Positions 45,806 to 60,898 of a stretch of 64,000 bases of DNA are shown here, in pieces. The position numbers and the translations under genes are program-made. The notes beneath the pieces are model-generated. The model was not told where the DNA came from. It ran no database searches and saw only the letters and a program-made list of their open reading frames with translations. Each line of letters starts with the position of its first letter. The stretch's first letter is position 1. Source of the DNA: a plasmid; sequence record NZ_CP031419.1, one strand, 5' to 3'.

Positions 45806-45862
45806 GGGGGCCAGGGGTTTCAATCGCGGATGGGGTTGCGGGAGTGGACGAGAAAGGAAGGG

Positions 45863-45899
45863 CCAGGGAGGGGGCCCGGTGTGCGGGCCCCCTCCCTGG
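45863..45899 (-). terminator. 16-bp-arm GC-rich hairpin downstream of the methyltransferase stop (also in 5' leader of next gene)
   Basis: CCAGGGAGGGGGCCCG-gtgtg-CGGGCCCCCTCCCTGG, followed on the minus strand by TTCCTTTCT. Confidence 0.35.
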
Positions 45900-45903
45900 T
45901 GGA

Positions 45904-47583
45904 TCACGCCGCCGGGGTGTAGCGGTCGAGCTCTTCGCCGGTGATGGCCTCCACCAGCGCAGAGATCAAAATCTCGGCAGCGGGCGGGGTGACGGCGTTG
46001 CCGAGCTGGCGCACCCGTTGGCGCTTGTTGCCGAGCACGATGTAGTCCTTGCGGAACGCCATCGCGTCCTGGATCTCGTGCGGCTCCAACATGCGGAACC
46101 GAGTGTTCTCGATGTCGCGCTCGGTGATCATGTCGACCAGAGCGAACCGGTCGCGGGTGCTGACCGTGCCCAGCGGTTCGGTGGCGGGCCGGGCGGTGCC
46201 GGTGCTGTAGTAGGGCAGCAGCAGCGTGTTCCACAGCTCGGGCGACATCCCGGCGGGCGGCGTGACCAGGCCGTGGTGATTGCCGCTGGCGGTGACGGTG
46301 GCCAGGGCCTCGGTCACCGGACGCGCGTCCGAGGAACCGCCGCGCAGCTCGGCGACGAAGGGGAGGAACGCCACCGCCGTCTCGTTGCGGGTGGTCTGGG
46401 TGCGCAGCGGCATCGAGGCCAGCTGGGCTTCCTTGCCGTCGCGACCCTCCATCGGAATCATCAGCGGCGGCGGCACGACCAGGCCGTGGTTGGAGCCGTC
46501 GGCAACGACCGTGGCGAGGGGTTCGTTCAGCCCGATCGTGCGGGGGCGGTCCGAGCGCAGCAGCGCCAGGAACGGCTGCGGGATCGCGAGCCCGTCGTTC
46601 TCCCGGGTGGTGCGGGCGGCCATGGGCCCTGTGACCTGGGTGGCGTCGTCGCGCCAGGTTCCCCCGGCGGGGACCATCATCGGCATCATCGAGGCGTAGC
46701 GGCGCATCCCGACGCGAATGCGTTCCATGGTCTTGGGAGCCAGAGGCTTGTCCCGGTCGCCGATGCGGGTGCCCGGCAGGGTCCAGTCGATCGCGGCGGC
46801 CGCCGGGAGCGCGGGCGGCTCCACGATCGAGTTGCGGCAGCTGACGCGAGGGCAGCGGTACACGTACTGGGTGCGGTAGCGCCCCATGTCGGCATTGGGC
46901 TTCTTGAAGACCTGGAGGGCGCTCACCCACTCGTCGCAGGCCAGGCAGTACGACAACGGGCGGAGCCACTTGTTCCAGTCGGGCTCGCGGCCGAGCTTGA
47001 GATCCCAGTAGGCGACGTAGAGCCGGTCCCGGGACTGCGGGGCCGCCGGAGTGCGAACCGGCTGGGCATGGCTGGAGTTGAGGGCGATGACCTTGACCCC
47101 GTAGCCCAGGGCCCGGATCTCGCCGATCCAGCGGTTCCACTGGTCCCACTGACGGACCTCGACCACGTTCTCCACGACCCCGGCGCGGACCCGGCCACCG
47201 CGCTCGATCACGCCGCGCAGGTACATCGGGACCTCTTCCATCAGCGCCCTGCTGCGGTCGGCTTCCTCATCGCGCTGAAGGTCGAGGAGGTCACCTTGGA
47301 GGGTGTTGTCGTAGTCGCGCTTCTTGCCGCGCGCCGAGGACCACTGCGGGCACTCCGGCGAGGCCCAGAAGATATCGGCCACAGGCCATTTCACGATCTG
47401 TTCTTTGGCCTCTTCGGTGCTCAGGTCTCCGAGGAAGTGATCGGCCTCGGGGTAGTTGGTGGCATGGGTCTCGATGGCCTTCGACCAGTGGTTCGCCGCG
47501 CGGGTGACGCGCACACCGGGCACCTTCGATGCGCCCTGAGTGGAGCCGCCAGCGCCGCAGAACCAATCCATCAATTCGAGCAT
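45904..47583 (-). CDS. DNA (cytosine-5)-methyltransferase, orphan (no cognate endonuclease seen)
   Basis: Motif I DWFCGAGG, PC motif ASPECPQWS, ENV motif VVENVVEV. 559 aa. Confidence 0.8.
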   Translation of the reverse strand: MLELMDWFCGAGGSTQGASKVPGVRVTRAANHWSKAIETHATNYPEADHFLGDLSTEEAKEQIVKWPVADIFWASPECPQWSSARGKKRDYDNTLQGDLLDLQRDEEADRSRALMEEVPMYLRGVIERGGRVRAGVVENVVEVRQWDQWNRWIGEIRALGYGVKVIALNSSHAQPVRTPAAPQSRDRLYVAYWDLKLGREPDWNKWLRPLSYCLACDEWVSALQVFKKPNADMGRYRTQYVYRCPRVSCRNSIVEPPALPAAAAIDWTLPGTRIGDRDKPLAPKTMERIRVGMRRYASMMPMMVPAGGTWRDDATQVTGPMAARTTRENDGLAIPQPFLALLRSDRPRTIGLNEPLATVVADGSNHGLVVPPPLMIPMEGRDGKEAQLASMPLRTQTTRNETAVAFLPFVAELRGGSSDARPVTEALATVTASGNHHGLVTPPAGMSPELWNTLLLPYYSTGTARPATEPLGTVSTRDRFALVDMITERDIENTRFRMLEPHEIQDAMAFRKDYIVLGNKRQRVRQLGNAVTPPAAEILISALVEAITGEELDRYTPAA

Positions 47584-47606
47584 GGGAATCGTCCCTTCGT
47601 GATTTG

Positions 47607-47670
47607 CGAGTGGGTCGAAGAAGGCGGGGTGTCCGGTCCCGCTTCCTTCTATGTCATATATTACCCGTTA
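47607..47670 (-). promoter_or_regulatory. conserved hairpin leader/promoter element, copy 1 (upstream of methyltransferase)
   Basis: GCGAGTGGGTCGAAGAAGGCGGGGTGTCCGGTCCCGCTTCCTTCTATGTCATATATTACCCG, nearly identical to the copy at 59232..59298. Confidence 0.6.
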
Positions 47671-48019
47671 AAGTTGATCGAGGTCAAGAACTTTCTTGAC
47701 GTGTCTTTTATCGAAATTATCTGTGCGGCAACAGCTTTCGATTCTCCTGCCGACCTGGGGATCGGGGCCGCAAACGCTACCGATACAATGGATGTTTTAG
47801 ATACACTGGAAGTGTTCGAAAAGTGCCCGCTCCCCGCGTTCGCCCACGTCAACGGAGCCGGAAGGGCTCGACAACGGCGTCGGGCCCAGCGGCGAACCCG
47901 CGAGCAGACACCGATCACACGAGAACCGCTGAGCGCTCGCGCGTCTCGGACCGGCCGCATACGTCGGAACGAGGTGGAAGACTTGCGGGCGAACGAGGCG
48001 TGGCCGACGCAACCGAACG

Positions 48020-48964
48020 ATGGAGCAGCCGATGACCGATGCCAGATCCGACCCCGCCGCACCCGAGGCGAGCCTCGGGGACCTCCAGGCCGAGGCGATC
48101 ACCCTGCTCACCCGCGTCTCGAGGATGCAGCGCTCCCGTCCGGCGGCGAACGGCGCTGCGGCCGCCCGCGCGACCGATCCGATCGACTTCGCCGAATTCG
48201 TCACCCAGGTGATGGCCGGAGTGGCCGCCAACCGGGGCGGCGTCGCCGTGCTGGCCGGTCGGCCCGGCAGCTGGGAGGCCGACAAACTGCGCGACATGCT
48301 CTACAGCACCGTCGGCGAGGACGAATGGGCGCTGGCCGAGCACCGCACCGAACCCGTGGTGATCCCGCTCGCGATCGAGGAAGTCCTGATCGACGCCGGG
48401 GAGCCCGAGGAATACGAACCCGAGGACCGCGCCCAGGAGATCGTCCGGCGCGCCCAGACCGCCGGCCTCAGCGTGGACGAATGGCTGACCCGCTGGAACG
48501 GCCGCGAACCGGTCTTCACCCGATGGCGGCCGTTGATGAAGCCCGAGGACCACTACGACGAGCAGGTCAACGCGGTCGAGAACCGCCACGACGATGCCTA
48601 CACCGCCCTCGAGGCCCGCTACCCCGAGGACACCGACTACAGCGTCTACGCCGCCGAGGCCGAGCAGCTCGACGCGCAGCGTGACGCCGAACTCGCCGCG
48701 CTGCGGGAGCGGTGGCGTCGGCGCTACCAGCGCTACGCCACCGCATTCGAGGCGGCCGTGCGGGCCAAGGCCGACGAGCTCGGGGTGCGGGTACCGCTCG
48801 AAGTCCAGGTCGAGACGGACCCGGACCGAACCTGGGACGCCCGCCAGAACATCGCTCCCGGCTGGGCCGACGCCGACCGGCTCGCCGTCCGCCTGTACGA
48901 GCACGCCCGCGAAGTCACCCCCACCGCCCTTCTGACCACCGACGAGCCCGACACCGAAGGCTGA
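48020..48964 (+). CDS. hypothetical protein
   Basis: 314 aa, acidic. Divergent from the methyltransferase. TTTAGATACACT motif about 230 bp upstream. Confidence 0.4.
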   Translation: MEQPMTDARSDPAAPEASLGDLQAEAITLLTRVSRMQRSRPAANGAAAARATDPIDFAEFVTQVMAGVAANRGGVAVLAGRPGSWEADKLRDMLYSTVGEDEWALAEHRTEPVVIPLAIEEVLIDAGEPEEYEPEDRAQEIVRRAQTAGLSVDEWLTRWNGREPVFTRWRPLMKPEDHYDEQVNAVENRHDDAYTALEARYPEDTDYSVYAAEAEQLDAQRDAELAALRERWRRRYQRYATAFEAAVRAKADELGVRVPLEVQVETDPDRTWDARQNIAPGWADADRLAVRLYEHAREVTPTALLTTDEPDTEG

Positions 48965-48970
48965 GGCCCC

Positions 48971-49288
48971 ATGACCGCCGAGAGCGCCCCCAAAACCCCA
49001 CCGGCACAGCGGGTTCTGACCGTCGGGCAGATCCGCGAAGCCCTTGCACAGTTCCCCGACGATCTCCCGCTGATGGTGTGCGTTCCCGTCGACGACGACA
49101 CCTACGAAAGCTACGGAGTCACGATGGGCCCCTACCACCAGCGGGCTGACTGGGGCGACGGGCTCGGCCCGGTCGCTGACGAACGCTACGTCGCCATCGA
49201 CGCCATGGCGTACTTCCTTGCTCTGCGAGAGGAGCTGGAGATCACCTCCGCCGACTCGGTCGCATCCGAGCAGGAGGCCGGACTGTGA
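48971..49288 (+). CDS. hypothetical protein
   Basis: 105 aa, tightly packed with neighbours. Confidence 0.35.
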   Translation: MTAESAPKTPPAQRVLTVGQIREALAQFPDDLPLMVCVPVDDDTYESYGVTMGPYHQRADWGDGLGPVADERYVAIDAMAYFLALREELEITSADSVASEQEAGL

Positions 49289-49728
49289 GCACACCCCGGA
49301 ACCCGTCGAGTCGCGAAACCGCCACCACCGGAAGGGAACTCGTCAAGTACGAGCCCTACCTTGAGCTCGTCTCGCGGCTGTGGTTCGCGGCGGCCGTGAA
49401 CCCGAACCGCCTCGCCGAGAAGATCGCGAGAACGACCCGCTTGAGCCGCAGCAGCTCGGTCATTTTCGTCGACGAACCGGTGACCTGGGAGACGCTGCCG
49501 CAGCGGCTCGCCGAGCGCCGACGCGACTACGCCGGGTACTTCGCGTCCCTGCCCCCGGTGGAGGCCGCCGCCTCTCGGCGGGGCTTGCTCCAGCGGCCCA
49601 CGCCGGAGATGGAGGCTACCGTCGCGGAGGCCGCCGCGCGGGTCTTCGCGCGGAGACAACAACCCGGCCCGGCTCAAAAATCCCAGCGCGCCAACGACAC
49701 CCACGCATCCGAGGGGGAACACCGATGA
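49285..49728 (+). CDS. hypothetical protein
   Basis: 147 aa, 4-nt overlap with the upstream gene. Confidence 0.35.
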   Translation: MSTPRNPSSRETATTGRELVKYEPYLELVSRLWFAAAVNPNRLAEKIARTTRLSRSSSVIFVDEPVTWETLPQRLAERRRDYAGYFASLPPVEAAASRRGLLQRPTPEMEATVAEAAARVFARRQQPGPAQKSQRANDTHASEGEHR

Positions 49729-49976
49729 AGGATCTCACCGCGACCGACCGACGCTTGGGCGAGGCCCTGGCCCAGCGTGACGAGGCGGCCCTGTCCAAGG
49801 TGGCCGACGAATTCGCCGCCGCCGGGCTGCCCGCCATGGCGCAGCTGTTGCGCGACCGCGGGACCGCAGGCGCAGCAGGGTTGCTGTCGGGGTTGACCGG
49901 GTGGTCGGTTCCGTCGGCGCACGGAGTCCGCCATCACCGTCACGGTGACGTAACTCCCGAGGGTCGTAGGTCGTGA
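49725..49976 (+). CDS. hypothetical small protein
   Basis: Internal Met of ORF 49380..49976 (MKDLTATDRRLGEALAQRDEA...). Overlaps the upstream stop. Confidence 0.3.
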   Translation: MKDLTATDRRLGEALAQRDEAALSKVADEFAAAGLPAMAQLLRDRGTAGAAGLLSGLTGWSVPSAHGVRHHRHGDVTPEGRRS

Positions 49977-50236
49977 CGGAGTCATGGCACTGTGAAGCGT
50001 ACGGACCCGAAGGTGTCGAAGTCGGGGCCCGGTGTTTCGTCGCGGGCGAGCTGCACGAGCGGGTCTGCACCGATCCGGGCGTGTGTCACCGGACGATGGT
50101 GGCAGAACGCCAGAGGGTTTTCCGGCGGATGAACGAGTTGGCCGCCGGTGGGTCGCCGTGGGCGGCCGACTTGGCGCAGGAGTTCGCCAGCCCCGAGCGG
50201 ATTCTCGGCGGCACGGACGAAGACCCCAGTTCCTGA
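49973..50236 (+). CDS. hypothetical small protein
   Basis: 87 aa, overlapping start and stop with the previous gene. Confidence 0.3.
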   Translation: MTESWHCEAYGPEGVEVGARCFVAGELHERVCTDPGVCHRTMVAERQRVFRRMNELAAGGSPWAADLAQEFASPERILGGTDEDPSS

Positions 50237-50572
50237 TTCGGCCGTGGCCACGCGTGTGGGATGCCGCGTCTTTGGCATACTGGCTGCGGGCCGTGGCGGG
50301 CGGCCCTACGGCCTGCTGATGCAGCGGGAGACCCCGTTGAAGAAGCGTATCGCTCCACCCGCCCACTAACATTGATGCCCTGCTGACGCTGATATGGAGC
50401 TGAACTGGGCAAATGCGGTTCTGGCTCCGGATAACTGCCATTATCCGGAGTGACACCAAAAAACACTACGGTGAGATACCCCCGCGCGGAGCACCTTTAG
50501 ATACATTAGAATAAATGGGCATGGCGGGAGCGCGATACCCGCGTCCACCAGCGGCGAACGCCGCCGGAGGAG

Positions 50573-51505: not shown

Positions 51506-51525
51506 CGCTCAGGAACCCCACCGGT

Positions 51526-51720
51526 TCAGGCCGCGGTAATCTCGAACAGGGTCAGCGCCGCGCTGTTAGCGTGTTGTTCGGCACGCTCCTTCACAGCACA
51601 GGTTGGGCCGATCCCCGCGCTCACCGAAGCCGCCGAAAGCAGCCAGCCGTGGCAGCGGCGGCAGTGCACGACGAGCCGCACCGTCGGCTGTTCCTGGTCA
51701 TCGGTCTCGGTCGCGGCCAT
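51526..51720 (-). CDS. small Cys-containing protein (zinc-finger-like)
   Basis: Start MAATETDD with a GGAGGAGAG RBS. CRRCHGW...GPTCA. Confidence 0.35.
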   Translation of the reverse strand: MAATETDDQEQPTVRLVVHCRRCHGWLLSAASVSAGIGPTCAVKERAEQHANSAALTLFEITAA

Positions 51721-51859
51721 GTTCGATCTCTCCTCCGGCCGGGTGGGTCTCTCCCAGGGTGACACAAGTGACCGACAACTCCGGCACGGTAGGGACGGCA
51801 AGGTTTTGGGTCGTTCCGTCCCGCAGAGCATGGGGCAGCCGGGCCCGACTTAAGGGAGG

Positions 51860-52456: not shown

Positions 52457-52469
52457 GCGGCCGTGCTTG

Positions 52470-52784: not shown

Positions 52785-52990
52785 AGGGACATGCCCATGC
52801 CGATGCGCAGCAAGTCGGCATCGCTGTACTTCGGCGGGTTCTGTTGCTCGTGCGCGGCGATGCGCCGCAACTCCTTGTCCGCGAGCCGCTGGAGCACGGC
52901 CCGGTTGATCTCGGCACTGACGTTGCCCTCCGCGCTCTCGCGCAGAGCCTGGGCCGTCGCGTCCGGGAGGCTGATGTTCAGTTTCGCCAT
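52781..52990 (-). CDS. RHH-family antitoxin candidate
   Basis: 69 aa, LNISLPDATAQALRESAEGNVSAEINRAVL (ribbon-helix-helix). Overlaps the toxin gene start. Confidence 0.5.
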   Translation of the reverse strand: MAKLNISLPDATAQALRESAEGNVSAEINRAVLQRLADKELRRIAAHEQQNPPKYSDADLLRIGMGMSL

Positions 52991-53042
52991 GCCACCACGG
53001 TAAAGCGTGTCGCTTTACCGTGGCAAGCGGGCGGGCCGTCGA

Positions 53043-53747
53043 TCAGAGCGGGAACAGCGACGGTTGGGCGTTGGCATTGCCAGTCCAGGACAAAACGTTG
53101 GGGAGGTTCGCGTCCGGGGCGAAGGTGAGGTAGGTCCCATCGACACTGTCGCAGCCGATCGCAGTCGCGTAGTCATAGCGGCGGCGCGAGTTCACCCGGC
53201 CCATATGGACCCACTTGCCGAGGCTCGAGGCGACCGCGGCGAGGTTCGCCGCCGCCGGGCCGAGCTTCCAGGCGGTGTCCCCGGCGAGGAACAGACAGTC
53301 AATCTCGTCCCACGGGTCCCAGGTGTCGAACTCCATGAAATTCTGGGCCGCGAAGGCGACGGGAAACCCGAGATCGCGGATGCGCCGCAGCATCGGCAGA
53401 GAGCGGGCGAGCGTGGCGAAGTGGTCGCCGACAACGTCGGGCGCCACCACGAACAGACAGCGGTCGGCGTGCGGGCGCAGCCGGCCGAGCCAGTTCAGGT
53501 AGGCGTCGTCACCGGGATAGGCCCCGCCGAACACCCCGTTGTCGGCACACCACAGCGGGTAGTCAGCGCTCAGGCGGTTGCCTTGAGCGGGAGTCATGAT
53601 CGCGCCCAGTTCCTCGGCGCGGATTCGGTCGCGGATCGCGGGTGTGCTGGGTGGGGTGAGGTAGAGCGGAGCGCCAGGAGTGCAGTCGTGCCAGCGCTCG
53701 GCCGCCCAGCTCTCATTAAAACGTTCGTTTTGGTTATCGGCAGGCAT
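53043..53747 (-). CDS. hypothetical protein, possible TGT-fold (DpdA-like?) enzyme
   Basis: 234 aa. Segment WVHMGRVNSRRRYDYATAIGCDSVDGT loosely resembles the HxxG...G.D.FDs segment of tRNA-guanine transglycosylase-like proteins. Speculative. Confidence 0.3.
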   Translation of the reverse strand: MPADNQNERFNESWAAERWHDCTPGAPLYLTPPSTPAIRDRIRAEELGAIMTPAQGNRLSADYPLWCADNGVFGGAYPGDDAYLNWLGRLRPHADRCLFVVAPDVVGDHFATLARSLPMLRRIRDLGFPVAFAAQNFMEFDTWDPWDEIDCLFLAGDTAWKLGPAAANLAAVASSLGKWVHMGRVNSRRRYDYATAIGCDSVDGTYLTFAPDANLPNVLSWTGNANAQPSLFPL

Positions 53748-53846
53748 GGATGCTTCCCTCCCACTGTGGCGGGGTGCGGTCGGAGACGGGAGAAGAAGGG
53801 CGGCGGACGAAGACCCCGGACCGCCGCCCCGCTCCCGATGGGAGGA

Positions 53847-54512
53847 CTAGAAGGTGAGTGTGAACCGCAGCGCGGCGCGGTACTCCTCGAACTCGACATC
53901 GAGGATCTTGCCGGTGAACTTCTCCCAGTTGCCCACAACGACGAAGTGCCGTTCGGCCAGCTGGCGCGTGGCTTCCTCGGTCGTGTCGACTGGAGTGGCT
54001 GGCGGGTCGAGCGGGACAAAGGTGCCCATCGGGTGGTCCTCGTAGTCGAAGACCTCGACCGTGCCGCCCGGGGACCAGGTCGCGCGCACCGTGATCACGC
54101 CCCGGAACTCGGCCTCCATGGCCCTGACGATTTCGGTCAGCTGATCGGCTGCGGTGAACAGCGCGGTCGCGCGCTCGTGCAGATCCGGGCGGTTACCAGC
54201 GAACAAGCGATCCATGTACGCGCGGGCGGTATCGGTGTAGGTGTTGACGGTGTCGCCCAGGACAGCGAGCACGCCGTCGCCCTCGGCGCCTCCGTGGAAG
54301 TGGCCGACGGCGGCCGCCGCCGCGAGCGCGCGAACGGTCAGGTCGGCGGCGCAATCGACGAACCCGTCGGCGTCCTGGACCGCCAACTCCTGCGCGACCT
54401 CGGTCAGGAACCGCACGACCTTGCTGGTCTCGGTCGCGGGCCGGGTGTCCTCGGTGGCGGGGCGCAGCGGGAACGGGTTGCTGATGATCTCCATGATCGG
54501 GAGTCCCTTCAA
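53847..54512 (-). CDS. hypothetical protein
   Basis: 221 aa, preceded by conserved leader copy 2. Confidence 0.4.
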   Translation of the reverse strand: MKGLPIMEIISNPFPLRPATEDTRPATETSKVVRFLTEVAQELAVQDADGFVDCAADLTVRALAAAAAVGHFHGGAEGDGVLAVLGDTVNTYTDTARAYMDRLFAGNRPDLHERATALFTAADQLTEIVRAMEAEFRGVITVRATWSPGGTVEVFDYEDHPMGTFVPLDPPATPVDTTEEATRQLAERHFVVVGNWEKFTGKILDVEFEEYRAALRFTLTF

Positions 54513-54516
54513 GGTG

Positions 54517-54582
54517 TGCGAGTGGGGGATGAAGGGGCGGGGTGTCCGGTCCCGCCGCCTTCTGTGTCATATATTACCCGTT
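54517..54582 (-). promoter_or_regulatory. conserved hairpin leader/promoter element, copy 2
   Basis: TGCGAGTGGGGGATGAAGGGGCGGGGTGTCCGGTCCCGCCGCCTTCTGTGTCATATATTACCCGTTA. Confidence 0.6.
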
Positions 54583-54631
54583 ATCTGGAATGAGTCAAGT
54601 CTTCCCGCGTATGTGTGGTGTGTGTCGCCGG

Positions 54632-55903
54632 TCAGGCCGATATTGGGAACAGCGCCAGGTCGGTGCCGGTGGCCTGCGCCCACCAGTCGGCGAATCCTGG
54701 CCGTTCCTTGTCGGCGACGACGGCGGGGGCGACGACGAAGAAGTGCTCCAGCTCGTGCGGGCTCGTGCCGTCCCGGCCGGGGACGACCGCGCGGGCGATG
54801 CCGTCGTCCCCGAGCTCGCGGCGGGTGTCGACGAGCGCCGGGGAGCCGTCGGGCCCGCCGATATCGACCCGCAGCGGAGCGCCGTCGAGCCAGGCGGCCA
54901 TCTCTTCGCGAGAACCGACGTCGACCGACCGCACCGATCGCGCGACCATCTTGGCCCCGCCGGTTTGGGTGCGCCGGGCGAGGCGGCGGACCTCGTAGAG
55001 GGCGTGAGGTTGTTCGGCGAGCGCACTCTCGAAGGCGGCCAGGACGCCGGTGAGTCCGGCCGCGCGCACGTAGTCGATGGCGCGCTTGCCGCCGACGAGG
55101 CCCTGTTTGGCGTTGAGCGCGAGTGCGGTGTGCTCCATCAGCAGCATCCGCGCCCCGGCGTCTGGGAACGCCGCGTAGCGCGCCAGGGTGGCGACTCGAT
55201 TGGCAGCGGTGACCAGCGCGAAGGGACAGAACACGCACGCCGACTTCTGCCATGCTCGGCCGGTCTTCTCCCGGATGTAGGCCAGCACCTGTTCCCGGTC
55301 CCAGCCCCAGGAGATCAGTGGGTACTCACCACGCCGCAGCGCGGTGTCGTATCCGGCGTCGCGGCGGGCCCGCGTCAGCTCGCCTGCCTCGAATCCGACG
55401 ACGTGCCGGTACGGCCGTCCGTGTGTAATCGCGGCGATCACCGGGTCGAGCACTTCGCCCTTGGCCGACATGCTGCACCGACGACTGCCACCGACCTGCG
55501 GCTGAGTGCCGGCCGTGAGCATCTCGGTGCCGAGGGTGTAGGCGCCCTCGATATAGAGGCGGTGCGGCGATCGGGAGTCGTCGAAGACGATGACGCCGGT
55601 GCCATCAGCGCGCACCCGGCGGTCGGCCCGCCCGACCTGGATGAACCGAATCCGGTGCTGGGCCAGTAGCGGGAGCACGACCTCGGCCACGTCCCGTGCG
55701 GTGTCTTCCCATTCGTCGCCCACCATGGCGGTGACGACGGCCAGCTCCGCCAGGTCGAAGTCGCGGCTGTCGGGGTCGAAGATCCAGCGCAGCAGCAGGG
55801 CGGTGCTGTCGGCCCCAAGTCCATAGGACAGCACGACTCGGGGCGCGGGTTCGTGCGCGGCGAGCTGCTCCCGCAGTGCCGCGGGCACAGCGGGCCCGGT
55901 CAC
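54632..55903 (-). CDS. PP-loop (PAPS-reductase/DndC/QueC-like) superfamily protein candidate
   Basis: Probable GTG start (VTGPAVP...). SYGLGADST resembles the SGGxDS PP-loop. A Cys cluster KSACVFCPF follows. The N-terminal 86 codons of the track ORF are Arg-rich noise overlapping a small gene. Confidence 0.4.
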   Translation of the reverse strand: MTGPAVPAALREQLAAHEPAPRVVLSYGLGADSTALLLRWIFDPDSRDFDLAELAVVTAMVGDEWEDTARDVAEVVLPLLAQHRIRFIQVGRADRRVRADGTGVIVFDDSRSPHRLYIEGAYTLGTEMLTAGTQPQVGGSRRCSMSAKGEVLDPVIAAITHGRPYRHVVGFEAGELTRARRDAGYDTALRRGEYPLISWGWDREQVLAYIREKTGRAWQKSACVFCPFALVTAANRVATLARYAAFPDAGARMLLMEHTALALNAKQGLVGGKRAIDYVRAAGLTGVLAAFESALAEQPHALYEVRRLARRTQTGGAKMVARSVRSVDVGSREEMAAWLDGAPLRVDIGGPDGSPALVDTRRELGDDGIARAVVPGRDGTSPHELEHFFVVAPAVVADKERPGFADWWAQATGTDLALFPISA

Positions 55904-56211
55904 CGGTTCGCCCGATCGCGGACGCGCAGGGCCACCCCGCCCGAGCCCGGCGGGCAGGTGCAGCCCGCCGCGTGCAGCTCGTCGGTGATGCGCCGCCAGG
56001 CGCGGTAGTGCCGTAGTCCGCCCTCGACGGCCACCGCACCGGCGAGGAACATCAGGCTGGAGATGATCGCGGGGAACTCCGACGACACTGCGCCGAGGGC
56101 GTACATCGAGCCCCCGGTCAGCCAGCCGGTGGCCACAACGGCGTGTGCCTGGGCGAGCCAACTCTGGTCGTGCTGTTCGTCATGACGTCGGTCGTGCTGG
56201 AAGTTGTTCAC
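55900..56211 (-). CDS. small membrane protein (hidden inside a longer spurious ORF)
   Basis: GTG start 7 nt after GGAGGAG. Two TM helices (SMYALGAVSSEFPAIISSLMFLAGAVAV). Partial conserved leader (GCGCGAGTGGGGATGGGCGG) upstream. GTGA overlap with the next gene. Confidence 0.35.
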   Translation of the reverse strand: MNNFQHDRRHDEQHDQSWLAQAHAVVATGWLTGGSMYALGAVSSEFPAIISSLMFLAGAVAVEGGLRHYRAWRRITDELHAAGCTCPPGSGGVALRVRDRANR

Positions 56212-56258
56212 GGGAAAACTCCTCCGGGAATGCGCGAGTGGGGATGGGCGGATGGCGG

Positions 56259-56876
56259 TCAGCGCGCCGTGTCCGGTTCGGCGTCGGTGCCGCCCGCGAC
56301 GAGAGAGCGCGGGCGAAAGTCGCGCGCGAACCGGTCGGTGAGCTGCGCCAGCAGCGCGAGCAATTGGTCGCGGGGAACGTCGACCGACTGGAAGGACCCG
56401 CCGAAGCGCACCGCGTCGGCGTCCGGGGCGATGGTGAGCCGTTCCCGGCCGTCGCCGAGGTCGGTGACCTCGAGCCGGTCGCCGTCGGCGTCTTCGAAGA
56501 CGGTGTGCGGCATGACGCGGATGCTGTCGGGCAGGCCCGCCGGGCGGACGCCGTGGCGCAGCAGGGCGACGGTCTCGGGCGTCAGCGCGCTCGCGGTGCG
56601 CAGCCGGAGTTCGAGTTCGCCGTCGTCGCTGTAGGCGATCAGCCGCCCGTCGAGGTCGTAGAAGTCGAGCCAGAGCCCGAACTCGTCGGCGCGGTCGGTG
56701 GCCGCGCCGACGGCCAGCCCGTTGGCCAGCAGCCCGCGAATGATCCAGCCGGTCGGCCCGAGCGGGGTCACCTGGGCGGAGTCGACGCTGTAGCGGTCGA
56801 TGAGGTCGAGCTCGTCGCGGAACGGGGTGTCCAGCACCGAGGACCACGCCCGCGCGTCCTGGTCTTTGCGCGACAT
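56259..56876 (-). CDS. hypothetical protein
   Basis: Start MSRKDQDARAW. ATGA overlap with the upstream gene's stop. Confidence 0.4.
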   Translation of the reverse strand: MSRKDQDARAWSSVLDTPFRDELDLIDRYSVDSAQVTPLGPTGWIIRGLLANGLAVGAATDRADEFGLWLDFYDLDGRLIAYSDDGELELRLRTASALTPETVALLRHGVRPAGLPDSIRVMPHTVFEDADGDRLEVTDLGDGRERLTIAPDADAVRFGGSFQSVDVPRDQLLALLAQLTDRFARDFRPRSLVAGGTDAEPDTAR

Positions 56877-57535
56877 CACGCCCGCCCCTCGTCGGTCAGC
56901 GAGGCCCACCAGCCGTCGACGAGGCCGTGCGCTGTCCAGTCCGCGAGCTGGGCGTGCGCGCAATCGCGGTGTGCGACCACCGCCGCGGCGCGCTCGATCG
57001 GGTAGCAGTGCGAATGCGTCGAGCAGCCCTGAGTCCAACCGGGTACGTCCTCGTCGAGCACGATGACGTTCGTAGGGACCAAGCCGTCGGAGGTGAGCGG
57101 GCCGAGCAGAGTGGCTTCCCGGTCCGGGTCGCCGAGCGCGGCGGCGGGCAGCATCGCGAAATCCCAGCGCCGGGAAGAGGACAGGACTGCGACGCGGACC
57201 GGATCGTGCAGCAGCGCGGCGGCGGCCTGCACGGCGGCCACGGCGGTGTAGCCGTAGCAGAAGATCTCGAGCGGGGTGCCGTCGAGACGGGAGTAGACCG
57301 AGGCGCACCACTCGGTGCTAGCGGCGATTTCGTCCGCGCCGAGCGCCAGGCCGTCGCCGTTGCACACGAGCATCTCCAGCGGGATGCCCCGGACTTCGCC
57401 GACGGGAATGTAGATGTTCACGTGGCCGACGACGCGGACCTGCGCGTCGTAACCGAGTTCGGTCAGCGCGGTCAACTCAGGTGCGTAGCGCACCTGTGCC
57501 TCGGCGACGAGAGCGTCGAATTTGGTGGAGGGCAT
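56876..57535 (-). CDS. hypothetical protein
   Basis: 219 aa, preceded by conserved leader copy 3. Confidence 0.4.
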   Translation of the reverse strand: MPSTKFDALVAEAQVRYAPELTALTELGYDAQVRVVGHVNIYIPVGEVRGIPLEMLVCNGDGLALGADEIAASTEWCASVYSRLDGTPLEIFCYGYTAVAAVQAAAALLHDPVRVAVLSSSRRWDFAMLPAAALGDPDREATLLGPLTSDGLVPTNVIVLDEDVPGWTQGCSTHSHCYPIERAAAVVAHRDCAHAQLADWTAHGLVDGWWASLTDEGRA

Positions 57536-57558
57536 TGCCCTGCTCCCTTCGGGGGATT

Positions 57559-57618
57559 TGCGAGTGGGGATCGAAGGGGGCGGGGTGTCCGGTCCCGCCC
57601 GGCTTCGGTGTTGCTCAG
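57559..57618 (-). promoter_or_regulatory. conserved hairpin leader element, copy 3 (lacks the TGTCATATATTACCCG module)
   Basis: TGCGAGTGGGGATCGAAGGGGGCGGGGTGTCCGGTCCCGCC. Confidence 0.5.
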
Positions 57619-57624
57619 GTGGTG

Positions 57625-58284
57625 TCAGTGGCGCTCGCGCGGTTCTGCGGTGGCGAGCAGTTCGAGCAGGGCTTCGATGTCGCTAGAGCCCGCGAGGCGG
57701 GCGGCGAGGGGTGTCCGCATGCGGGTGATTACGGCGTGCAGCGTGCCGCGCGGACCATCGGACACTGGATGCCGGTCGCCGGTGCGCGGGTCCACGAGCT
57801 CGCCGGTGACCTGGATGTCGATCAACGGGTTCCGGCGGAACACCAGGAAGCAGCGCGTGGTGACGTAGTCGAATTCGATGTCGGCTCCGAACGCAAGGGC
57901 CGGTTCGGGGGCGTCGCGGACGATGACCTCGAAGTAGCGGTAGCCAGAGAAGATCGCGGTGAACGGTGCGGTGCACACGGTGACGCTGAGCCATTGCCGG
58001 GTGCCCGCGTGCCAGGCGGTGTAGGGGCCGGTGCGGGTGAGATCGGTCAGGGTCTCCACGAACGCCGCGTGACGCGCCTCGTAGTCCGGCGTCCGCCACC
58101 ATGCGCGGCTGTCGCCCCGATGGAACCGGGCGATACAGAACAACACGGTCCCGCTGACGAGCAAGCCCGCGACGTCGAGCCAAGCGCGCCGTTGCACCGC
58201 CGTGTACAGGCTGGAGCCGATCGCGGCGGCCGCCACGAACATGGTCAGGGGGAACAGCTTGTTGAGAATCTTGCGGATCACGAT
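57625..58284 (-). CDS. membrane protein
   Basis: Probable GTG start after GAAAGG. N-terminal TM helix (MFVAAAAIGSSLYTAV). Confidence 0.4.
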   Translation of the reverse strand: MVIRKILNKLFPLTMFVAAAAIGSSLYTAVQRRAWLDVAGLLVSGTVLFCIARFHRGDSRAWWRTPDYEARHAAFVETLTDLTRTGPYTAWHAGTRQWLSVTVCTAPFTAIFSGYRYFEVIVRDAPEPALAFGADIEFDYVTTRCFLVFRRNPLIDIQVTGELVDPRTGDRHPVSDGPRGTLHAVITRMRTPLAARLAGSSDIEALLELLATAEPRERH

Positions 58285-58331
58285 CGAAACCTTTCGTCGA
58301 TAGGAAAAGGAGGGAGGGAGCCGGGCGCGGC

Positions 58332-58715
58332 TCAGCCGTTGACCCACTCGATCGGCACTTCCACGCCCCAGAAGCGGCGGTGGAGCAGCCGCCGGGCGTT
58401 CTCGGCGTCGGTCAGCCGTCCGTCGCGGCGGCGGAAGTGGACGATCGGGCAGCCCTCGATCGAGGGCCAGAAGGTGCCGTCGGCGTGCCGGATTCCGGAC
58501 TGGATCAGGGCGTACGCCTCGCGGCCGGAGCCACCCGAGTTGCACGCGGTCACCCGGACGACGGGCACCCCGGCGGCGATCCGCGCGTCGCGCTCGGCGA
58601 CGGCCTCGGCGGTGTCGAAGTACTCGGGGTCGTGATTAGAGGCGTAGAGAGCGGCGCGGATCTGCTCGGCGGTGCACTGCACGTTCAGCTGTCCGGCCGC
58701 GGCGGTGGAGGGCAT
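58332..58715 (-). CDS. hypothetical protein
   Basis: Start MPSTAAAG. A diverged leader copy (GCGAGTGGGGGAGCGACGGGCGGAAGTGTCCGGTTTCCGCC) lies upstream at ~58735-58790. Confidence 0.35.
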   Translation of the reverse strand: MPSTAAAGQLNVQCTAEQIRAALYASNHDPEYFDTAEAVAERDARIAAGVPVVRVTACNSGGSGREAYALIQSGIRHADGTFWPSIEGCPIVHFRRRDGRLTDAENARRLLHRRFWGVEVPIEWVNG

Positions 58716-58801
58716 GAGGTGCTCCTTCGGCGATGGCGAGTGGGGGAGCGACGGGCGGAAGTGTCCGGTTTCCGCCCCGTCGCTTCGGGTGACGGAAAGG
58801 G

Positions 58802-59212
58802 TCAGAAGGGTGCTTCGTCGTCGCCCCACGGGGCGCTTGAGTCACCGCGCCCGTCGGCGGGCTCGTCGTCCTCGTCGTCGGGGTTCCAGTCGTCGGGGAC
58901 GCCGTCGGCCCACACCACTGCCTTGGCGTTGTGGTCCCAGGTGACGTTGGCGAGGGCCTGCACGTTCTCCAGCGAGGCGTCGTCTTCGACGCGAACGCCC
59001 GCCGGGATGTGCCACAGGTCGCCCCGGAAGTCCCAGGCCGACCCGCTGCGCTGGGCCGAGGAGCTGACTTCCTCGGCCGCCCAGGCGCGGGCGTCGGCCT
59101 CGGTGACGAATTCCTTCTCGTCGAGGGAGCGTCGCTCGGACGCGGGCGGGACGTCGGAGAAGACGACGTAGAAGCGATCGTGGTCCGCGACCACTGCTGC
59201 CAGAGGACTCAT
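58802..59212 (-). CDS. small acidic protein (DNA-mimic/anti-restriction candidate)
   Basis: 136 aa with a strongly D/E-rich C-terminus (PDDWNPDDEDDEPADGRGDSSAPWGDDEAPF). Preceded by leader copy 4. Confidence 0.4.
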   Translation of the reverse strand: MSPLAAVVADHDRFYVVFSDVPPASERRSLDEKEFVTEADARAWAAEEVSSSAQRSGSAWDFRGDLWHIPAGVRVEDDASLENVQALANVTWDHNAKAVVWADGVPDDWNPDDEDDEPADGRGDSSAPWGDDEAPF

Positions 59213-59231
59213 GGGAATGCCCTTTCGTAGG

Positions 59232-59298
59232 GTGCGAGTGGGGTCGAAGAAGGCGGGGTGTCCGGTCCCGCTTCCTTCTATGTCATATATTACCCGAT
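59232..59298 (-). promoter_or_regulatory. conserved hairpin leader/promoter element, copy 4
   Basis: GCGAGTGGGGTCGAAGAAGGCGGGGTGTCCGGTCCCGCTTCCTTCTATGTCATATATTACCCGATA. Confidence 0.6.
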
Positions 59299-59372
59299 AT
59301 ATCGGCGAAGGCCAAGCACTTTCCGATGGGTGAGTCGGATTGGTTCCCGCCCGATCGGTCTCGGGCGGGAAG

Positions 59373-60784: not shown

Positions 60785-60898
60785 GATCTGGAGGCGCCGA
60801 TGTACCCAGACCTGCGGTCCGGCCACATCGGCTGGCCCGGCAGGCGACTGCCGGCCCTGCGAGCGCACCAGTGCGCCCGGTAGGCGAAAGGACGTGAA

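What the first reader, a model, noticed from the sequence alone, without database searches (positions are those of the whole stretch)
45806..59298. Near-identical hairpin-containing promoter/5'-leader element repeated upstream of at least five minus-strand genes
A 65-80 bp block precedes five genes:
- 47583 (C5 methyltransferase)
- 54512
- 57535
- 59212
- 58715 (diverged)

Partial copies precede 56211 and 45805.

Read on the coding strand, the consensus is:

TAATATATGACA[T/C]AGAAGG - GCGGGACCGGACACCCCGC (stem-loop) - CYTTC.. - CCCCACTCGCA - 5-9 nt - GAAGGGA (RBS) - 6-9 nt - ATG.

Copies 1 and 4 lie 11.6 kb apart and are about 98% identical over 65 nt, far more conserved than the flanking genes.

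The TAATAT box sits where a -10 element would. The hairpin and the CCCCACTCGCA box would therefore fall within the 5'UTR.

The architecture resembles phage start-associated sequences (SAS/ESAS) or a shared riboregulator/operator that coordinately controls a regulon. I do not recognise it as a known RNA family.
Basis: seen in the sequence. Interest (0 to 1): 0.8.

Follow-up and report, generated by a model that had tools for sequence, protein, structure and literature searches.

The report
Repeated hairpin leader cassette, Nocardia plasmid
A 75-110 bp module heads at least six genes in the variable gene array beside the transfer origin of a Nocardia conjugative plasmid: a GC-rich hairpin with an invariant CCGGACA loop, a C-rich box, a strong ribosome-binding site and, in three copies, a promoter. 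It is real, recurs in related mobile elements, matches no described RNA family and probably coordinates expression of these genes.

Summary
Six canonical copies lie on the minus strand between 47.6 and 59.3 kb (covariance-model E <= 5e-7 each; background starts at E 0.02). Another three or four copies are degenerate.

- **Promoters:** only three copies (genes at 59212, about 54494 and 47583) carry TTGNCC-16..18-TAATAT. The other three (58715, 57535, 56211) are intercistronic.
- **Conservation:** the stem covaries, while the loop (A)CCGGACA(C) and the box CACTCGC are invariant in 27-28 distinct copies.
- **Source:** a pNF1-type conjugative plasmid of Nocardia. The array sits next to a NikA-like gene, a MOBP relaxase gene and an oriT-like cluster of inverted repeats.
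- **Relatives:** divergent elements in Nocardia wallacei, N. asiatica and Nonomuraea keep the loop and promoter core but carry lineage-specific boxes.
- **Known families:** no Rfam family matches, no copies turned up in viral contigs, and I found no description in the literature.
- **Recombination:** one 1.18-kb gene cassette indel is bounded exactly by two copies.

Best reading (about 0.5): a portable expression cassette acting mainly in the mRNA. It combines a 5'-terminal or intercistronic hairpin, an unstructured C-rich platform and a Shine-Dalgarno sequence, is probably recognised by an unknown factor, and also serves as a recombination linker.

The closest analogues are T4-type PeSLs, Cluster K SAS/ESAS and pLS20 EGeRS. 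It is a member of none of them.

The parts
59210..59315 (-). Copy E1, promoter type. TTGGCC 59315-59310; TAATAT 59292-59287; stem arms 59278-59267 and 59257-59246; loop ACCGGACAC 59266-59258; box CCCCACTCGCA 59243-59233; Shine-Dalgarno GAAAGGG 59226-59220; ATG 59212 (136-aa protein of unknown function).
   Evidence: covariance-model hit of 51.4 bits; fold.
58713..58788 (-). Copy E2, intercistronic. The stem has a different sequence (GCGACGGGGCGGAA / TTCCGCCCGTCGC). Loop 58769-58761; box CCCCACTCGCC 58745-58735; ATG 58715 (127 aa).
   Evidence: covariance-model hit of 39.6 bits; fold.
57533..57612 (-). Copy E3, intercistronic, about 20 nt after a TGA stop. Loop 57593-57585; box 57569-57559; ATG 57535 (219 aa).
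   Evidence: covariance-model hit of 44.2 bits; fold.
56209..56296 (-). Copy E4, intercistronic. The hairpin overlaps the end of the upstream ORF. Stem CGCCG/CGGCG; loop 56277-56269; longer spacer; box CCCCACTCGCG 56243-56233; GTG 56211 (103 aa).
   Evidence: covariance-model hit of 40.7 bits.
54492..54598 (-). Copy E5, promoter type. TTGACT 54598-54593; TAATAT 54576-54571; loop 54550-54542; box 54527-54517; Shine-Dalgarno GAAGGGA 54510-54504; probable ATG 54494.
   Evidence: covariance-model hit of 41.8 bits.
47581..47687 (-). Copy E6, promoter type, leader of the C5 DNA methyltransferase. TTGACC 47687-47682; TAATAT 47663-47658; stem arms 47649-47638 and 47628-47617; loop 47637-47629; box ACCCACTCGCA 47615-47605; Shine-Dalgarno 47598-47592; ATG 47583.
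   Evidence: covariance-model hit of 51.4 bits; footprint across orthologues.
44977..45065 (-). Variant copy. A long outer stem encloses a small inner hairpin and TCGGACAC (45026-45019). It is followed by an exact CCCCACTCGCA (44999-44989) inside a TGCCC/GGGCA hairpin, in the leader of the gene for a protein with two HTH motifs. The variant is conserved in all relatives.
45840..45899 (-). Degenerate copy just after the methyltransferase stop. A perfect 16-bp hairpin with a CACAC loop and a T-rich tail (terminator-like), then CCACTCCCGCA. In the plasmid of locus L001 this is followed by a Shine-Dalgarno and a GTG for a gene that is deleted in the window.
   Evidence: 20.6 bits, E 0.018.
53745..53830 (-). 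Degenerate copy. A 9-bp GC hairpin (GGGCGGCGG/CCGCCGCCC), a C-rich tract ACCCCGCCACAG, Shine-Dalgarno GGGAGGGAAG and ATG 53747.
   Evidence: Read from the sequence. It is below the model threshold, so membership is tentative.
52995..53023 (-). A perfect 12-bp hairpin with a GACAC loop, 4 nt before ATG 52990.
   Evidence: Read from the sequence. Relation to the family is tentative.
45904..47583 (-). C5 cytosine DNA methyltransferase gene. This is the gene most constantly linked to the element in other genomes.
   Evidence: Pfam PF00145, E 1.6e-18.
44399..44902 (-). Gene for a protein with two MerR/Xis-like HTH motifs. It always follows the methyltransferase module and is a candidate DNA-binding regulator. 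The true start may be the internal GTG near 44815.
   Evidence: The family matches are weak.
60690..62946 (+). Context. An oriT-like cluster of inverted repeats (60690-60880), a NikA-like gene (60899-61318) and a MOBP relaxase gene (61315-62946). All are divergent from the element-bearing array.

Best explanation
The element is a portable expression cassette of pNF1-type conjugative elements. It acts mainly as part of the mRNA.

**Promoter-type copies (three).** A strong housekeeping-type promoter (TTGNCC, 16-18 nt, TAATAT) would start transcription about 1-3 nt before the hairpin. Each primary transcript would then begin with a stable 11-14 bp stem-loop. That geometry is known to protect mRNAs from 5'-end-dependent decay.

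**Intercistronic copies.** The same hairpin follows the stop codon of the upstream gene. There it would insulate or stabilise the two halves of the polycistronic RNA.

**Downstream of every hairpin.** A G-poor, unstructured segment carries the invariant box (CCCCACTCGCA here). Then come a strong Shine-Dalgarno (GAAGGGA), a short spacer that often ends in TCCC, and the start codon. Together these form a ready-made, open translation-initiation region.

**A trans-acting partner.** The CCGGACA loop is invariant across paralogues and across genera. The box is identical among paralogues of one element but differs between lineages. I infer that both are read by a sequence-specific partner, either encoded by the element or supplied by the host. 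That partner would switch the whole set of genes next to oriT together, as expected for genes needed transiently after transfer. The promoter core may additionally be repressed by the co-conserved protein with two HTH motifs.

**Recombination.** The conserved 30-40 nt also serve as homology for recombination that inserts or deletes gene cassettes.

**Shown versus inferred.** Shown: the repeats, the covarying stem, the invariant loop and box, promoter-like hexamers at correct spacing, the plasmid/oriT context, the wider distribution, and one cassette indel bounded by copies. Inferred: the transcription start, the RNA-level action, the effect on stability or translation, and the existence and identity of the partner.
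For: - **Repeats are far beyond chance.**
- **The stem covaries.** 74.7% of cells are paired against 57.9% in shuffles (0 of 500 reach the observed value). 53 cells have changes on both sides against 20.7. The covariation score is 0.449 against 0.11-0.27 when partners are slid by 1-3 columns. RNAalifold keeps the inner stem, with 6-7 compensatory sequences per pair.
- **Loop and box are invariant.** The loop positions C-GGAC-C and the box CACTCGC do not vary in 27-28 distinct copies whose arms and spacers have diverged.
- **Fixed geometry.** All copies have the same orientation as the genes. The box lies 5-9 nt (up to 12 in relatives) before the Shine-Dalgarno, which lies 6-9 nt (up to 12 nt) before the start. 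No conserved pairing involves the box or the Shine-Dalgarno.
- **Promoters.** -35/-10 hexamers are present at three copies. They are retained in orthologues while flanks diverge, and conservation begins sharply about 8 nt before TAATAT (the TTA-CGGG block) and runs to the ATG.
- **Context.** The array is beside the NikA-like gene, relaxase gene and oriT-like region of a conjugative plasmid.
- **Wider family.** N. wallacei, N. asiatica and Nonomuraea keep the promoter core CGGGTAnnnT..(A/G)GAAG and the CCGGACA loop. Their boxes are lineage-specific (CCACCCACGAA and CCACCCGCGA), and several copies sit in one gene array.
- **Cassette indel.** The plasmid of locus L001 has one chimeric copy (E2 hairpin plus E3 initiation region) where the window has E2, 1.18 kb and E3.
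- **Analogous module elsewhere.** A sequence-unrelated hairpin + box + Shine-Dalgarno module occurs in a Streptomyces plasmid with no relaxase called by MOB typing.
Against: - There are no transcript data, so the start site and the RNA-level role are inferred.
- Folding energies are only modestly better than shuffles (z from -2.3 to +1.0).
- The reverse complement folds slightly better in 24 of 27 copies, and G-U against A-C counts do not favour the sense strand. The strand that folds cannot be identified from the sequence.
- No partner was found. No anti-loop or anti-box sequence is consistently present, and most downstream proteins have no recognisable family.
- Identity of the box among paralogues could reflect gene conversion rather than a shared reader.
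- In pNF1 the methyltransferase copy lies about 100 kb from the relaxase, so closeness to oriT is not universal.
Confidence: 0.5

Rival explanations
1. DNA-level operator. The invariant CCGGACA and/or the box are double-stranded binding sites for an element-encoded DNA-binding protein. Candidates are the co-conserved protein with two MerR/Xis-like HTH motifs, and the C5 methyltransferase, whose possible CCGG target lies in the loop. Binding would block transcription of the whole array once the protein accumulates. The flanking inverted repeat would be an unrelated terminator or insulator.
For: - The methyltransferase and the HTH protein are the genes that travel with the element in every locus.
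- The HTH protein shows weak MerR_1, HTH_17 and lambda Xis matches in many family members.
- Its own leader carries the most elaborate variant, with two GGACA motifs in N. wallacei and N. asiatica.
- The promoter core contains a near-palindrome, TATATGACATAGA, over the predicted start. Relatives have tandem CGGGTnnnnTGTTGA units.
- Repressor-controlled repeated promoters are known for establishment genes of p576-type plasmids (PMC8708921).
Against: - A double-stranded operator does not explain why arms of unrelated sequence always pair around the site.
- Copies without a promoter keep the loop and box.
- The distance from loop to box varies from 14 to 26 nt, which is awkward for a fixed two-part DNA site.
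- One copy has CAGG instead of CCGG.
Confidence: 0.2
2. The element is primarily a recombination linker or gene-cassette boundary. The repeats persist because they let cassettes be swapped between related elements, by homologous recombination as with T4-type PeSLs or by an unknown site-specific recombinase. Expression signals come along as passengers.
For: - An exact 1.18-kb indel is bounded by E2 and E3, and the plasmid of locus L001 carries a chimeric copy.
- The number and content of element-flanked cassettes differ between the window, L001, pNF1 and N. ignorata.
- The genes between copies are orphans.
- PeSLs behave this way (PMC2839356, PMC4122927).
Against: - There is only one clean case.
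- Two other junctions near copies turned out to be a microhomology deletion and, by its end sequence read from memory of Tn3 inverted repeats, probably a Tn3-like transposon insertion.
- Recombination alone does not explain a loop held invariant between Nocardia and Nonomuraea while the arms change.
- This reading is compatible with the best explanation rather than exclusive of it.
Confidence: 0.15
3. Single-stranded DNA function during conjugation. The hairpins form on the transferred strand in the recipient. There they act as priming sites for complementary-strand synthesis, as single-strand promoters, or as secondary relaxase recognition sites.
For: - The array adjoins the relaxase/oriT region.
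- A hairpin followed by a conserved single-stranded box resembles the layout of inverted repeat plus nick site.
- The conserved oriT-region sequence GAGACACACTCGAAGTG contains GACAC and CACTCG, the cores of the loop and box.
- The antisense strand folds slightly better.
Against: - The stems are 11-14 bp, too short to build a -35/-10 pair as Frpo does (PMC11541004).
- If the relaxase genes enter last, the transferred strand is the coding strand and cannot be the template. If the plus strand is transferred, the array enters last.
- Ordinary double-strand promoters are present.
- Copies also occur in chromosomal elements, where no transfer genes lie in the about 14 kb fetched (only a weak Toprim hit), and in pNF1 about 100 kb from oriT.
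- The tight register with the Shine-Dalgarno and start codon is not needed for a DNA function.
Confidence: 0.07
4. No function of its own. The copies are leftovers of duplications of one promoter/leader, or a selfish small repeat (MITE- or REP-like), kept similar by gene conversion.
For: Copies E1 and E6 are almost identical, which fits recent conversion.
Against: - Intercistronic copies have diverged completely in the arms and spacers yet keep the loop and box exactly.
- The same holds between species and genera.
- Pairing is maintained by compensatory change.
- I saw no terminal inverted repeats or target duplications in the copies I read (not separately searched). All copies share one orientation and one register with gene starts.
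- Copies are confined to these mobile elements: every true hit in the genome scan was Nocardia, and none was found in viral contigs.
Confidence: 0.05

Closest known systems
PeSL (promoter-early stem-loop) cassettes of T4-type phages (PMC2839356, PMC4122927)
   Same: - Both are short composite modules of about 100 bp: a sigma-70-type promoter, a GC-rich stem-loop and a Shine-Dalgarno sequence.
- Both are repeated upstream of small orphan genes in a hyperplastic region of a mobile element.
- In one PeSL subclass the stem-loop lies just downstream of the -10, as it does here.
- Recombination between copies gives cassette indels. One such case is seen here.
   Different: - There is no sequence relationship, and the host and element type differ (an actinobacterial plasmid or integrated element rather than a myovirus).
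- Half of the copies here have no promoter.
- PeSL stem-loops are terminators with poly-G/poly-C stems and no invariant loop. Here the loop is invariant, an extra conserved single-stranded box is present, and the sense strand has no U-tract.
SAS/ESAS (start-associated sequences) of Cluster K mycobacteriophages (PMC3203893)
   Same: - Both are conserved asymmetric motifs at the ribosome-binding position of many non-structural genes, in one orientation.
- In both, a subset or all copies are preceded by an inverted repeat with a variable spacer.
- The hosts are related (Mycobacteriales).
- The function of SAS/ESAS is unknown, and a role in translation initiation or a protein-binding site has been proposed.
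   Different: - The SAS consensus GGGATAGGAGCCC is absent from the window.
- ESAS arms are conserved in sequence and do not support pairing. Here the arms covary and the loop is conserved.
- An extra box lies upstream of the Shine-Dalgarno.
- The element is on plasmids and integrated elements, and no copy was found in IMG/VR.
EGeRS1/EGeRS2, establishment-gene regulatory sequences of pLS20-family plasmids (PMC8708921)
   Same: - Both are conserved regulatory sequences repeated upstream of several operons of variable establishment or anti-restriction genes of a conjugative plasmid.
- EGeRS2 consists of strong promoters shut off by a plasmid repressor.
- EGeRS1 consists of structured GC-rich leaders of unknown mechanism on the non-template transferred strand.
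   Different: - EGeRS1 is 400-600 bp with many inverted repeats. Here there is a single short hairpin plus a box.
- EGeRS elements sit only at operon starts, whereas these copies also sit between cistrons.
- There is no sequence similarity, and the hosts are Firmicutes rather than Actinomycetes.
nut-type antitermination sites (a boxB hairpin with a conserved loop plus a linear boxA) of lambdoid phages and rrn leaders. Compared from general knowledge.
   Same: Both pair a small hairpin, whose loop rather than stem is conserved, with a conserved single-stranded box in the leader RNA. The order hairpin then box is that of rrn leaders.
   Different: - Copies here precede nearly every cistron and abut the Shine-Dalgarno.
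- No N-like or NusG-like protein was recognised in the ORFs scanned against Pfam, which did not cover the whole window.
- The loop is a 7-9 nt CCGGACA, not a GNRA-like pentaloop.
- Antitermination could not be tested.

Membership tests
Any Rfam family (release 15) | A match to a curated covariance model at the gathering score. | tested here: not met
   There were no matches for the whole window. At E <= 10 on 44500-60000 only chance-level hits appeared, and none overlaps a canonical copy.
SAS/ESAS of Cluster K mycobacteriophages | The 13-nt GGGATAGGAGCCC (up to 2 deviations) 3-8 nt before start codons. | tested here: not met
   There was one match with 2 mismatches, at 33364 and unrelated to the array. 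Shuffles give 1.8.
SAS/ESAS of Cluster K mycobacteriophages | ESAS: 17-bp inverted repeats that are conserved in sequence and whose departures do not preserve pairing. | tested here: not met
   The pattern here is the opposite. The arms differ in sequence and keep pairing through compensatory changes, while the loop is invariant.
PeSL regulatory cassettes | A sigma-70-like promoter, a stem-loop and a Shine-Dalgarno in one intergenic module upstream of orphan genes. | tested here: inconclusive
   Three copies meet this. The three intercistronic copies lack a promoter.
PeSL regulatory cassettes | The stem-loop works as a transcription terminator or attenuator. | not testable with these tools
   None of the six canonical copies has a U-tract on the gene strand. 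Only the 45899-45863 hairpin and the antisense side of E1 and E6 look terminator-like.
PeSL regulatory cassettes | Recombination between copies creates cassette insertions or deletions. | tested here: met
   Window 58704-57520 (1.18 kb) is absent from the plasmid of locus L001, whose single copy is an E2/E3 chimera. This is a single case.
PeSL regulatory cassettes | Resides in hyperplastic regions of T4-type phage genomes. | tested here: not met
   The source is a Nocardia conjugative plasmid. There was no match in the phage collection or in viral contigs.
Frpo/ssi single-strand promoters of plasmid leading regions | A long imperfect hairpin in the transferred strand whose stem rebuilds -35 and -10 hexamers, with the transferred strand as the template strand of the genes. 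| tested here: not met
   The stems are 11-14 bp and contain no hexamers. The hexamers lie upstream in ordinary linear order. The strand geometry is unfavourable or unknown.
Intrinsic (Rho-independent) terminator | A GC-rich hairpin followed directly by a U-rich tract on the transcribed strand. | tested here: not met
   The scan flags none of the six canonical copies on the minus strand. The 3' flank is C-rich (CUUCGACCCCAC).
MITE / REP-type small mobile repeats | Terminal inverted repeats with target duplications, or scattered extragenic copies in either orientation with no fixed relation to gene starts. | tested here: not met
   All copies are on one strand with a fixed distance to the Shine-Dalgarno and start. 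They are absent from the other 45 kb of the window and from non-Nocardia genomes.
Integron attC sites | An imperfect hairpin whose base (R and L boxes) is conserved and whose top is variable, with an adjacent integron integrase and attI. | tested here: not met
   Conservation is at the top (loop) and in a 3' flanking box, while the base of the stem varies. No integron integrase context was seen, only plasmid recombinases about 3-5 kb beyond the last variant copy.
EGeRS of pLS20-family plasmids | Sequence homology to EGeRS1 or EGeRS2. The 400-600 bp multi-hairpin leader was judged from the paper's description only. | not tested
By the description in PMC8708921, size and architecture differ.

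The most novel reading that the evidence does not exclude
The CCGGACA-loop hairpin plus its lineage-specific box is the cis half of an undescribed post-transfer (zygotic) switch shared by mobile elements of several actinomycete orders. An element-encoded reader binds the loop and box in RNA or DNA and shuts down the whole anti-restriction/establishment regulon once the element is settled. The box would co-evolve with its reader.
Probability: 0.2. Interest if true: 0.75.

Novelty: new variant of a known kind. Interest (0 to 1): 0.55.

Why it matters
Genes beside the transfer origin of conjugative plasmids, including orphan methyltransferases, decide whether incoming DNA survives the recipient's defences. 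How they are expressed is known for only a few proteobacterial and Bacillus plasmids.

This element gives a precise sequence handle on that regulon in Nocardia, a genus that includes clinical pathogens carrying these plasmids, and in relatives such as Nonomuraea.
- It marks which orphan genes belong together.
- It offers a compact promoter/leader that may be useful for expression in Mycobacteriales.
- Its invariant loop and lineage-specific box make the search for a reader protein or RNA directly testable.
- It extends the idea of regulatory cassettes that double as recombination linkers from T4-type phages to actinobacterial plasmids.

Tried and rejected
- **Rfam.** Gathering and E <= 10 searches found nothing relevant.
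- **Phage origin.** There was no megablast hit in 50,697 phage records. Three pattern scans of IMG/VR were run. The first two gave only chance matches without hairpin or gene-start context. The eight hits of the third, the promoter-core pattern, contained no CCGGACA-loop hairpin.
- **Genome-wide pattern scan.** It returned 101 stretches, but only the Nocardia ones are real. The pattern demanded the pNF1-type box, so the true distribution is underestimated.
- **Anti-Shine-Dalgarno switch.** The idea was that the 3' arm (CCCUUCG) pairs alternatively with CGAAGGG. It looked promising in E3 and E5, but the supposed compensatory position is not kept in orthologues (reading), and RNAalifold finds no conserved pairing outside the hairpin.
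- **Strand assignment from wobble pairs and folding energies.** This was inconclusive.
- **Loop and box as an ECF-type -35/-10 pair.** Rejected because their spacing varies from 14 to 26 nt.
- **Antisense partner.** Anti-loop and anti-box words occur elsewhere only at chance level. The extra exact CCCCACTCGCA at 63844 (+) lies in a coding region in a different arrangement.
- **Functions of the downstream proteins.** Pfam, PHROGs and NCBIfam gave almost nothing.
- **Junctions near copies.** The junction in locus L108 and the one after the methyltransferase are, respectively, what looks like a Tn3-like insertion (judged from its end sequence) and a microhomology deletion, not element-mediated events.
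- **Complementarity to 16S rRNA.** I considered loop or box pairing with 16S rRNA from memory only. No rRNA sequence was available, so the idea was dropped.

Full report
**1. Is it there?**

Yes. The hairpin 19-mer occurs four times exactly, all on the minus strand. Shuffles give 0.35 matches at up to 3 mismatches. CCCCACTCGCA with up to 1 mismatch occurs ten times against 2.5 expected, and seven of these are minus-strand sites in 44989-59243.

Reading the upstream regions of the proposed starts shows two kinds of copy.
- Three copies, before 59212, 54512/54494 and 47583, run as follows: TTGNCC, 16-18 nt, TAATAT, ATGACA(T/C)AGAAGG, hairpin, box, Shine-Dalgarno, start.
- Three copies, before 58715, 57535 and 56211, begin after the stop codon of the previous gene. 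They consist only of hairpin, box, Shine-Dalgarno and start.

A covariance model built from 27 distinct hairpins scores six sites in the window at 39.6-51.4 bits (E <= 5e-7). One marginal site at 45860-45902 scores 20.6 bits, and everything else is noise.

I also noted a variant at 45065-44977 (TCGGACAC plus the exact box) and two degenerate hairpin modules at about 53830-53745 and 53023-52995.

**2. Is the hairpin a selected structure?**

The arms fall into at least four unrelated sequence classes: GCGGG/CCCGC, CGGAA/TTCCG, CGCCG/CGGCG and TCGGG/CCCGA. The longer outer stems are also unrelated, and yet they pair. On the ungapped 39-column alignment:
- 74.7% of cells pair, against 57.9% in shuffles (0 of 500 reach the observed value).
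- 53 cells carry changes on both sides, against 20.7 expected.
- The covariation score of 0.449 falls to 0.11-0.27 when partners are slid by 1-3 columns.

RNAalifold on the full-length alignment keeps only the inner stem and predicts no conserved pairing for the box or Shine-Dalgarno. The loop positions C-GGAC-C and the box CACTCGC are invariant in all 27-28 distinct copies.

Folding energy alone is unimpressive, with z from -2.3 to +1.0. The reverse complement folds slightly better, and wobble counts do not pick a strand. The structure is therefore supported by covariation. Assigning it to the gene strand rests on the constant orientation and register with gene starts.

**3. Where are we?**

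The region is 90-94% identical to large Nocardia plasmids, including pNF1 of N. farcinica IFM 10152, all typed MOBP. The window encodes:
- a type IV coupling protein, a lytic transglycosylase/NlpC-P60 protein, ParA/ParB and recombinases;
- immediately to the right of the array and divergent from it, a NikA-like protein and a MobA/VirD2-type relaxase. Upstream of these lies a dense cluster of inverted repeats at 60690-60880 that looks like oriT. One of its palindromes covaries in N. ignorata.

The element-headed genes are a C5 DNA methyltransferase and small proteins without recognisable families. This matches the content of the establishment or leading regions described for other plasmids (PMC11541004, PMC8708921). 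However, the nick site and the transferred strand are unknown here, and in pNF1 the methyltransferase copy is about 100 kb from the relaxase.

**4. Promoter part**

The scan finds only three sigma-70-like sites in 16.7 kb. Two of them belong to the element, and E1 has TTGGCC-17-TAATAT. In an alignment of 12 orthologous methyltransferase leaders, everything upstream of the -35 is scrambled. The TTGAC-type hexamer stays at 16-18 nt. The block from TTA-CGGGTAATAT to the ATG is almost invariant, except for the middle of the stem arms.

With the usual 6-8 nt between -10 and start, the RNA would begin 1-3 nt before the stem. This is an inference. It matters because a 5'-terminal stem-loop is an established mRNA stabiliser.

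**5. Wider distribution**

- A short-query BLAST finds the pNF1-type module only in four Nocardia plasmids of PLSDB.
- A pattern scan of 185,579 species genomes returned 101 stretches. All true copies were in Nocardia, and the rest lacked hairpin and gene context.
- Viral contigs gave nothing real.

I then followed the protein encoded after the methyltransferase module into more distant genomes. This showed the family is broader than my pattern allowed.
- In N. wallacei and N. asiatica (chromosomal elements) and in a Nonomuraea contig carrying ParA, the methyltransferase leader has the same promoter core (CGGGTAnnnT, 7 nt, then AGAAG, or GGAAG in N. wallacei) and a hairpin whose loop is again CCGGACA.
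- The box differs: CCACCCACGAA in the two Nocardia and CCACCCGCGA in Nonomuraea.
- In Nonomuraea four to five copies sit in successive intergenic gaps, and the box occurs nine times on the gene strand and never on the other.

So the loop is constant across orders, and the box is constant within an element but specific to a lineage.

**6. Homologous genes without the element**

Two Streptomyces plasmids carry related methyltransferase genes.
- In one, the gene is translationally coupled within an operon and has no leader.
- In the other, every 80-100 nt intergenic gap holds a different repeated module built on the same plan. A long hairpin has a conserved apex (GGGAATCCC), followed by a conserved box (AACCGACAGCCTCAC), a Shine-Dalgarno and a start. 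Weak matches to this module occur in 15 Streptomyces plasmids.

The element is therefore not tied to the gene. The architecture does recur, including on a plasmid with no relaxase called by MOB typing, which argues mildly for an RNA-level role rather than a role in transferred single-stranded DNA.

**7. Recombination**

Compared with the plasmid of locus L001, the window has an extra 1.18 kb (58704-57520) bounded by copies E2 and E3. L001 has a single copy whose hairpin is E2-like and whose initiation region is E3-like, so the exchange lies between the loop and the first codons. The number of cassettes between copies also differs in pNF1 and N. ignorata. Two other junctions close to copies proved unrelated: a deletion between AACCCC microhomologies, and what looks from its end sequence like a Tn3-like insertion.

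**8. Mechanism**

I commit to an RNA-level expression cassette, with confidence about 0.5.
- The hairpin acts as a 5'-terminal or intercistronic stabiliser and insulator.
- The G-poor box region acts as an open platform just upstream of a strong Shine-Dalgarno.
- The loop and box act as recognition sites for an unidentified partner that co-regulates the array.

The promoter core may additionally be repressed. The best candidate repressor is the protein with two MerR/Xis-like HTH motifs that always accompanies the module (weak matches).

Rivals:
- a purely DNA-level operator (0.2);
- primarily a recombination linker (0.15, and compatible with the main reading);
- a single-stranded DNA role in transfer (0.07);
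- no function (0.05).

I rejected an anti-Shine-Dalgarno switch and an ECF-type promoter reading (see the list of things tried).

**9. Comparison with known systems**

Functionally and architecturally the nearest system is the PeSL cassette of T4-type phages. It combines a promoter, a stem-loop and a Shine-Dalgarno upstream of orphan genes, and it mediates cassette shuffling (PMC2839356, PMC4122927). The next nearest are SAS/ESAS of Cluster K mycobacteriophages (PMC3203893) and the EGeRS of pLS20-family plasmids (PMC8708921).

The element fails the defining sequence or structural features of each (see the membership table) and matches no Rfam family. I found no paper describing it.

I rate it a new variant of a known kind: a repeated regulatory cassette of a mobile element. 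It is distinguished by a covarying hairpin with an invariant CCGGACA loop and a lineage-specific single-stranded box. Interest is 0.55. The element is real, undescribed and testable, but its mechanism is inferred and the general phenomenon is not unprecedented.

Noticed in passing
window 60742-60771 (+), with 60699-60720 and 60775-60860: The oriT-like region upstream of the NikA-like gene holds five close inverted repeats. The palindrome CCCAAAACCCCGGGGTTTTGGG keeps pairing through compensatory changes in N. ignorata. The left arm of AGACACACTCGAA-GTGA-TTCGAGTGTGTCT is conserved there while the right arm decays. That conserved arm (GACACACTCG) contains the cores of both the loop (GACAC) and the box (CACTCG). 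This could be coincidence, or the same protein could read both.
   Followed up: partly
window 60681-60683; locus L175 23301-26655: pNF1 carries a 3.3-kb insertion (tyrosine recombinase, HTH regulator, hypothetical protein) exactly at this point, between the first leading-side gene and the oriT-like repeats. The window lacks it.
   Followed up: partly
window 47683-47700: A perfect 8-bp inverted repeat, GTCAAGAA-ag-TTCTTGAC, overlaps the -35 hexamer of the methyltransferase promoter. It is conserved in several relatives and is a possible separate operator.
   Followed up: no
locus L176 (Streptomyces sp. ITFR-21 plasmid pSITFR-21c) 617-8009: An array of same-strand small genes, including a homologous C5 methyltransferase, is separated by 80-100 nt gaps. 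Four of the gaps each hold a long hairpin with the apex GGGAATCCC, and three to four of those are followed by an AACCGACAGCCTCAC-type box and a Shine-Dalgarno. Two gaps instead share a promoter-like GTCATAGTGTCCACCCACTA. Weak matches occur in 15 Streptomyces plasmids.
   Followed up: partly
window 57520-58704 (-): A 1.18-kb cassette (a 127-aa gene plus an ORF of about 218 aa) is present here and in N. amamiensis but absent from the plasmid of locus L001 and from pNF1. It is bounded by two copies of the element. The flanking genes both begin MPST.
   Followed up: yes
window about 45828; locus L001 20164-21148: The window lacks a 984-bp gene (325 aa) that follows the methyltransferase in relatives. 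The junction lies between AACCCC microhomologies, just after the degenerate box.
   Followed up: yes
locus L108 about 3665 onward (N. neocaledoniensis): Homology to the window stops about 3-5 nt after the box of copy E5. The new sequence begins GGCGTGTGGGGTCCAGTGACGAGAAAAGTCGCGCTAAG, which looks like a Tn3-family terminal repeat. A transposon appears to have inserted into the leader.
   Followed up: partly
window 44399-44902 (-); proteins P0001-P0026: This protein family has two MerR/Xis-like HTH motifs (TLxEWA...SVRNxW...FP and RTLGAIARLLGVDGKTVTQYR). All named members but one (labelled Streptomyces gardneri) are from Nocardia or Nonomuraea. In the loci examined its gene lies downstream of the C5 methyltransferase, directly after it or within 1-3 kb. 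Many homologues start at MGTLITL, so the window gene may start at the internal GTG near 44815.
   Followed up: partly
window 39718-39760 and 39798-39840 (+): Two 43-nt direct repeats (81% identical) each end in the palindrome GGTAAACCGCGGTTTACC, about 200 nt downstream of parB. They are a possible centromere (parS-like) or iteron site.
   Followed up: no
window 60436-60463 (-) and 60379: The third sigma-70-like site of the region (TTGACC-16-TACATT) drives the first gene on the array side of oriT (178 aa, unknown function). Its initiation region, GAGAGGTTTCCCATG, resembles the GGGAnnnTCCC-ATG ending of the element, but it has no hairpin or box.
   Followed up: no
window 47622-47644 and 59251-59273 (+): Read on the antisense strand, the hairpins of E6 and E1 are followed by a T-rich run and score as intrinsic-terminator-like. 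They could stop antisense transcription from running into the promoters.
   Followed up: no
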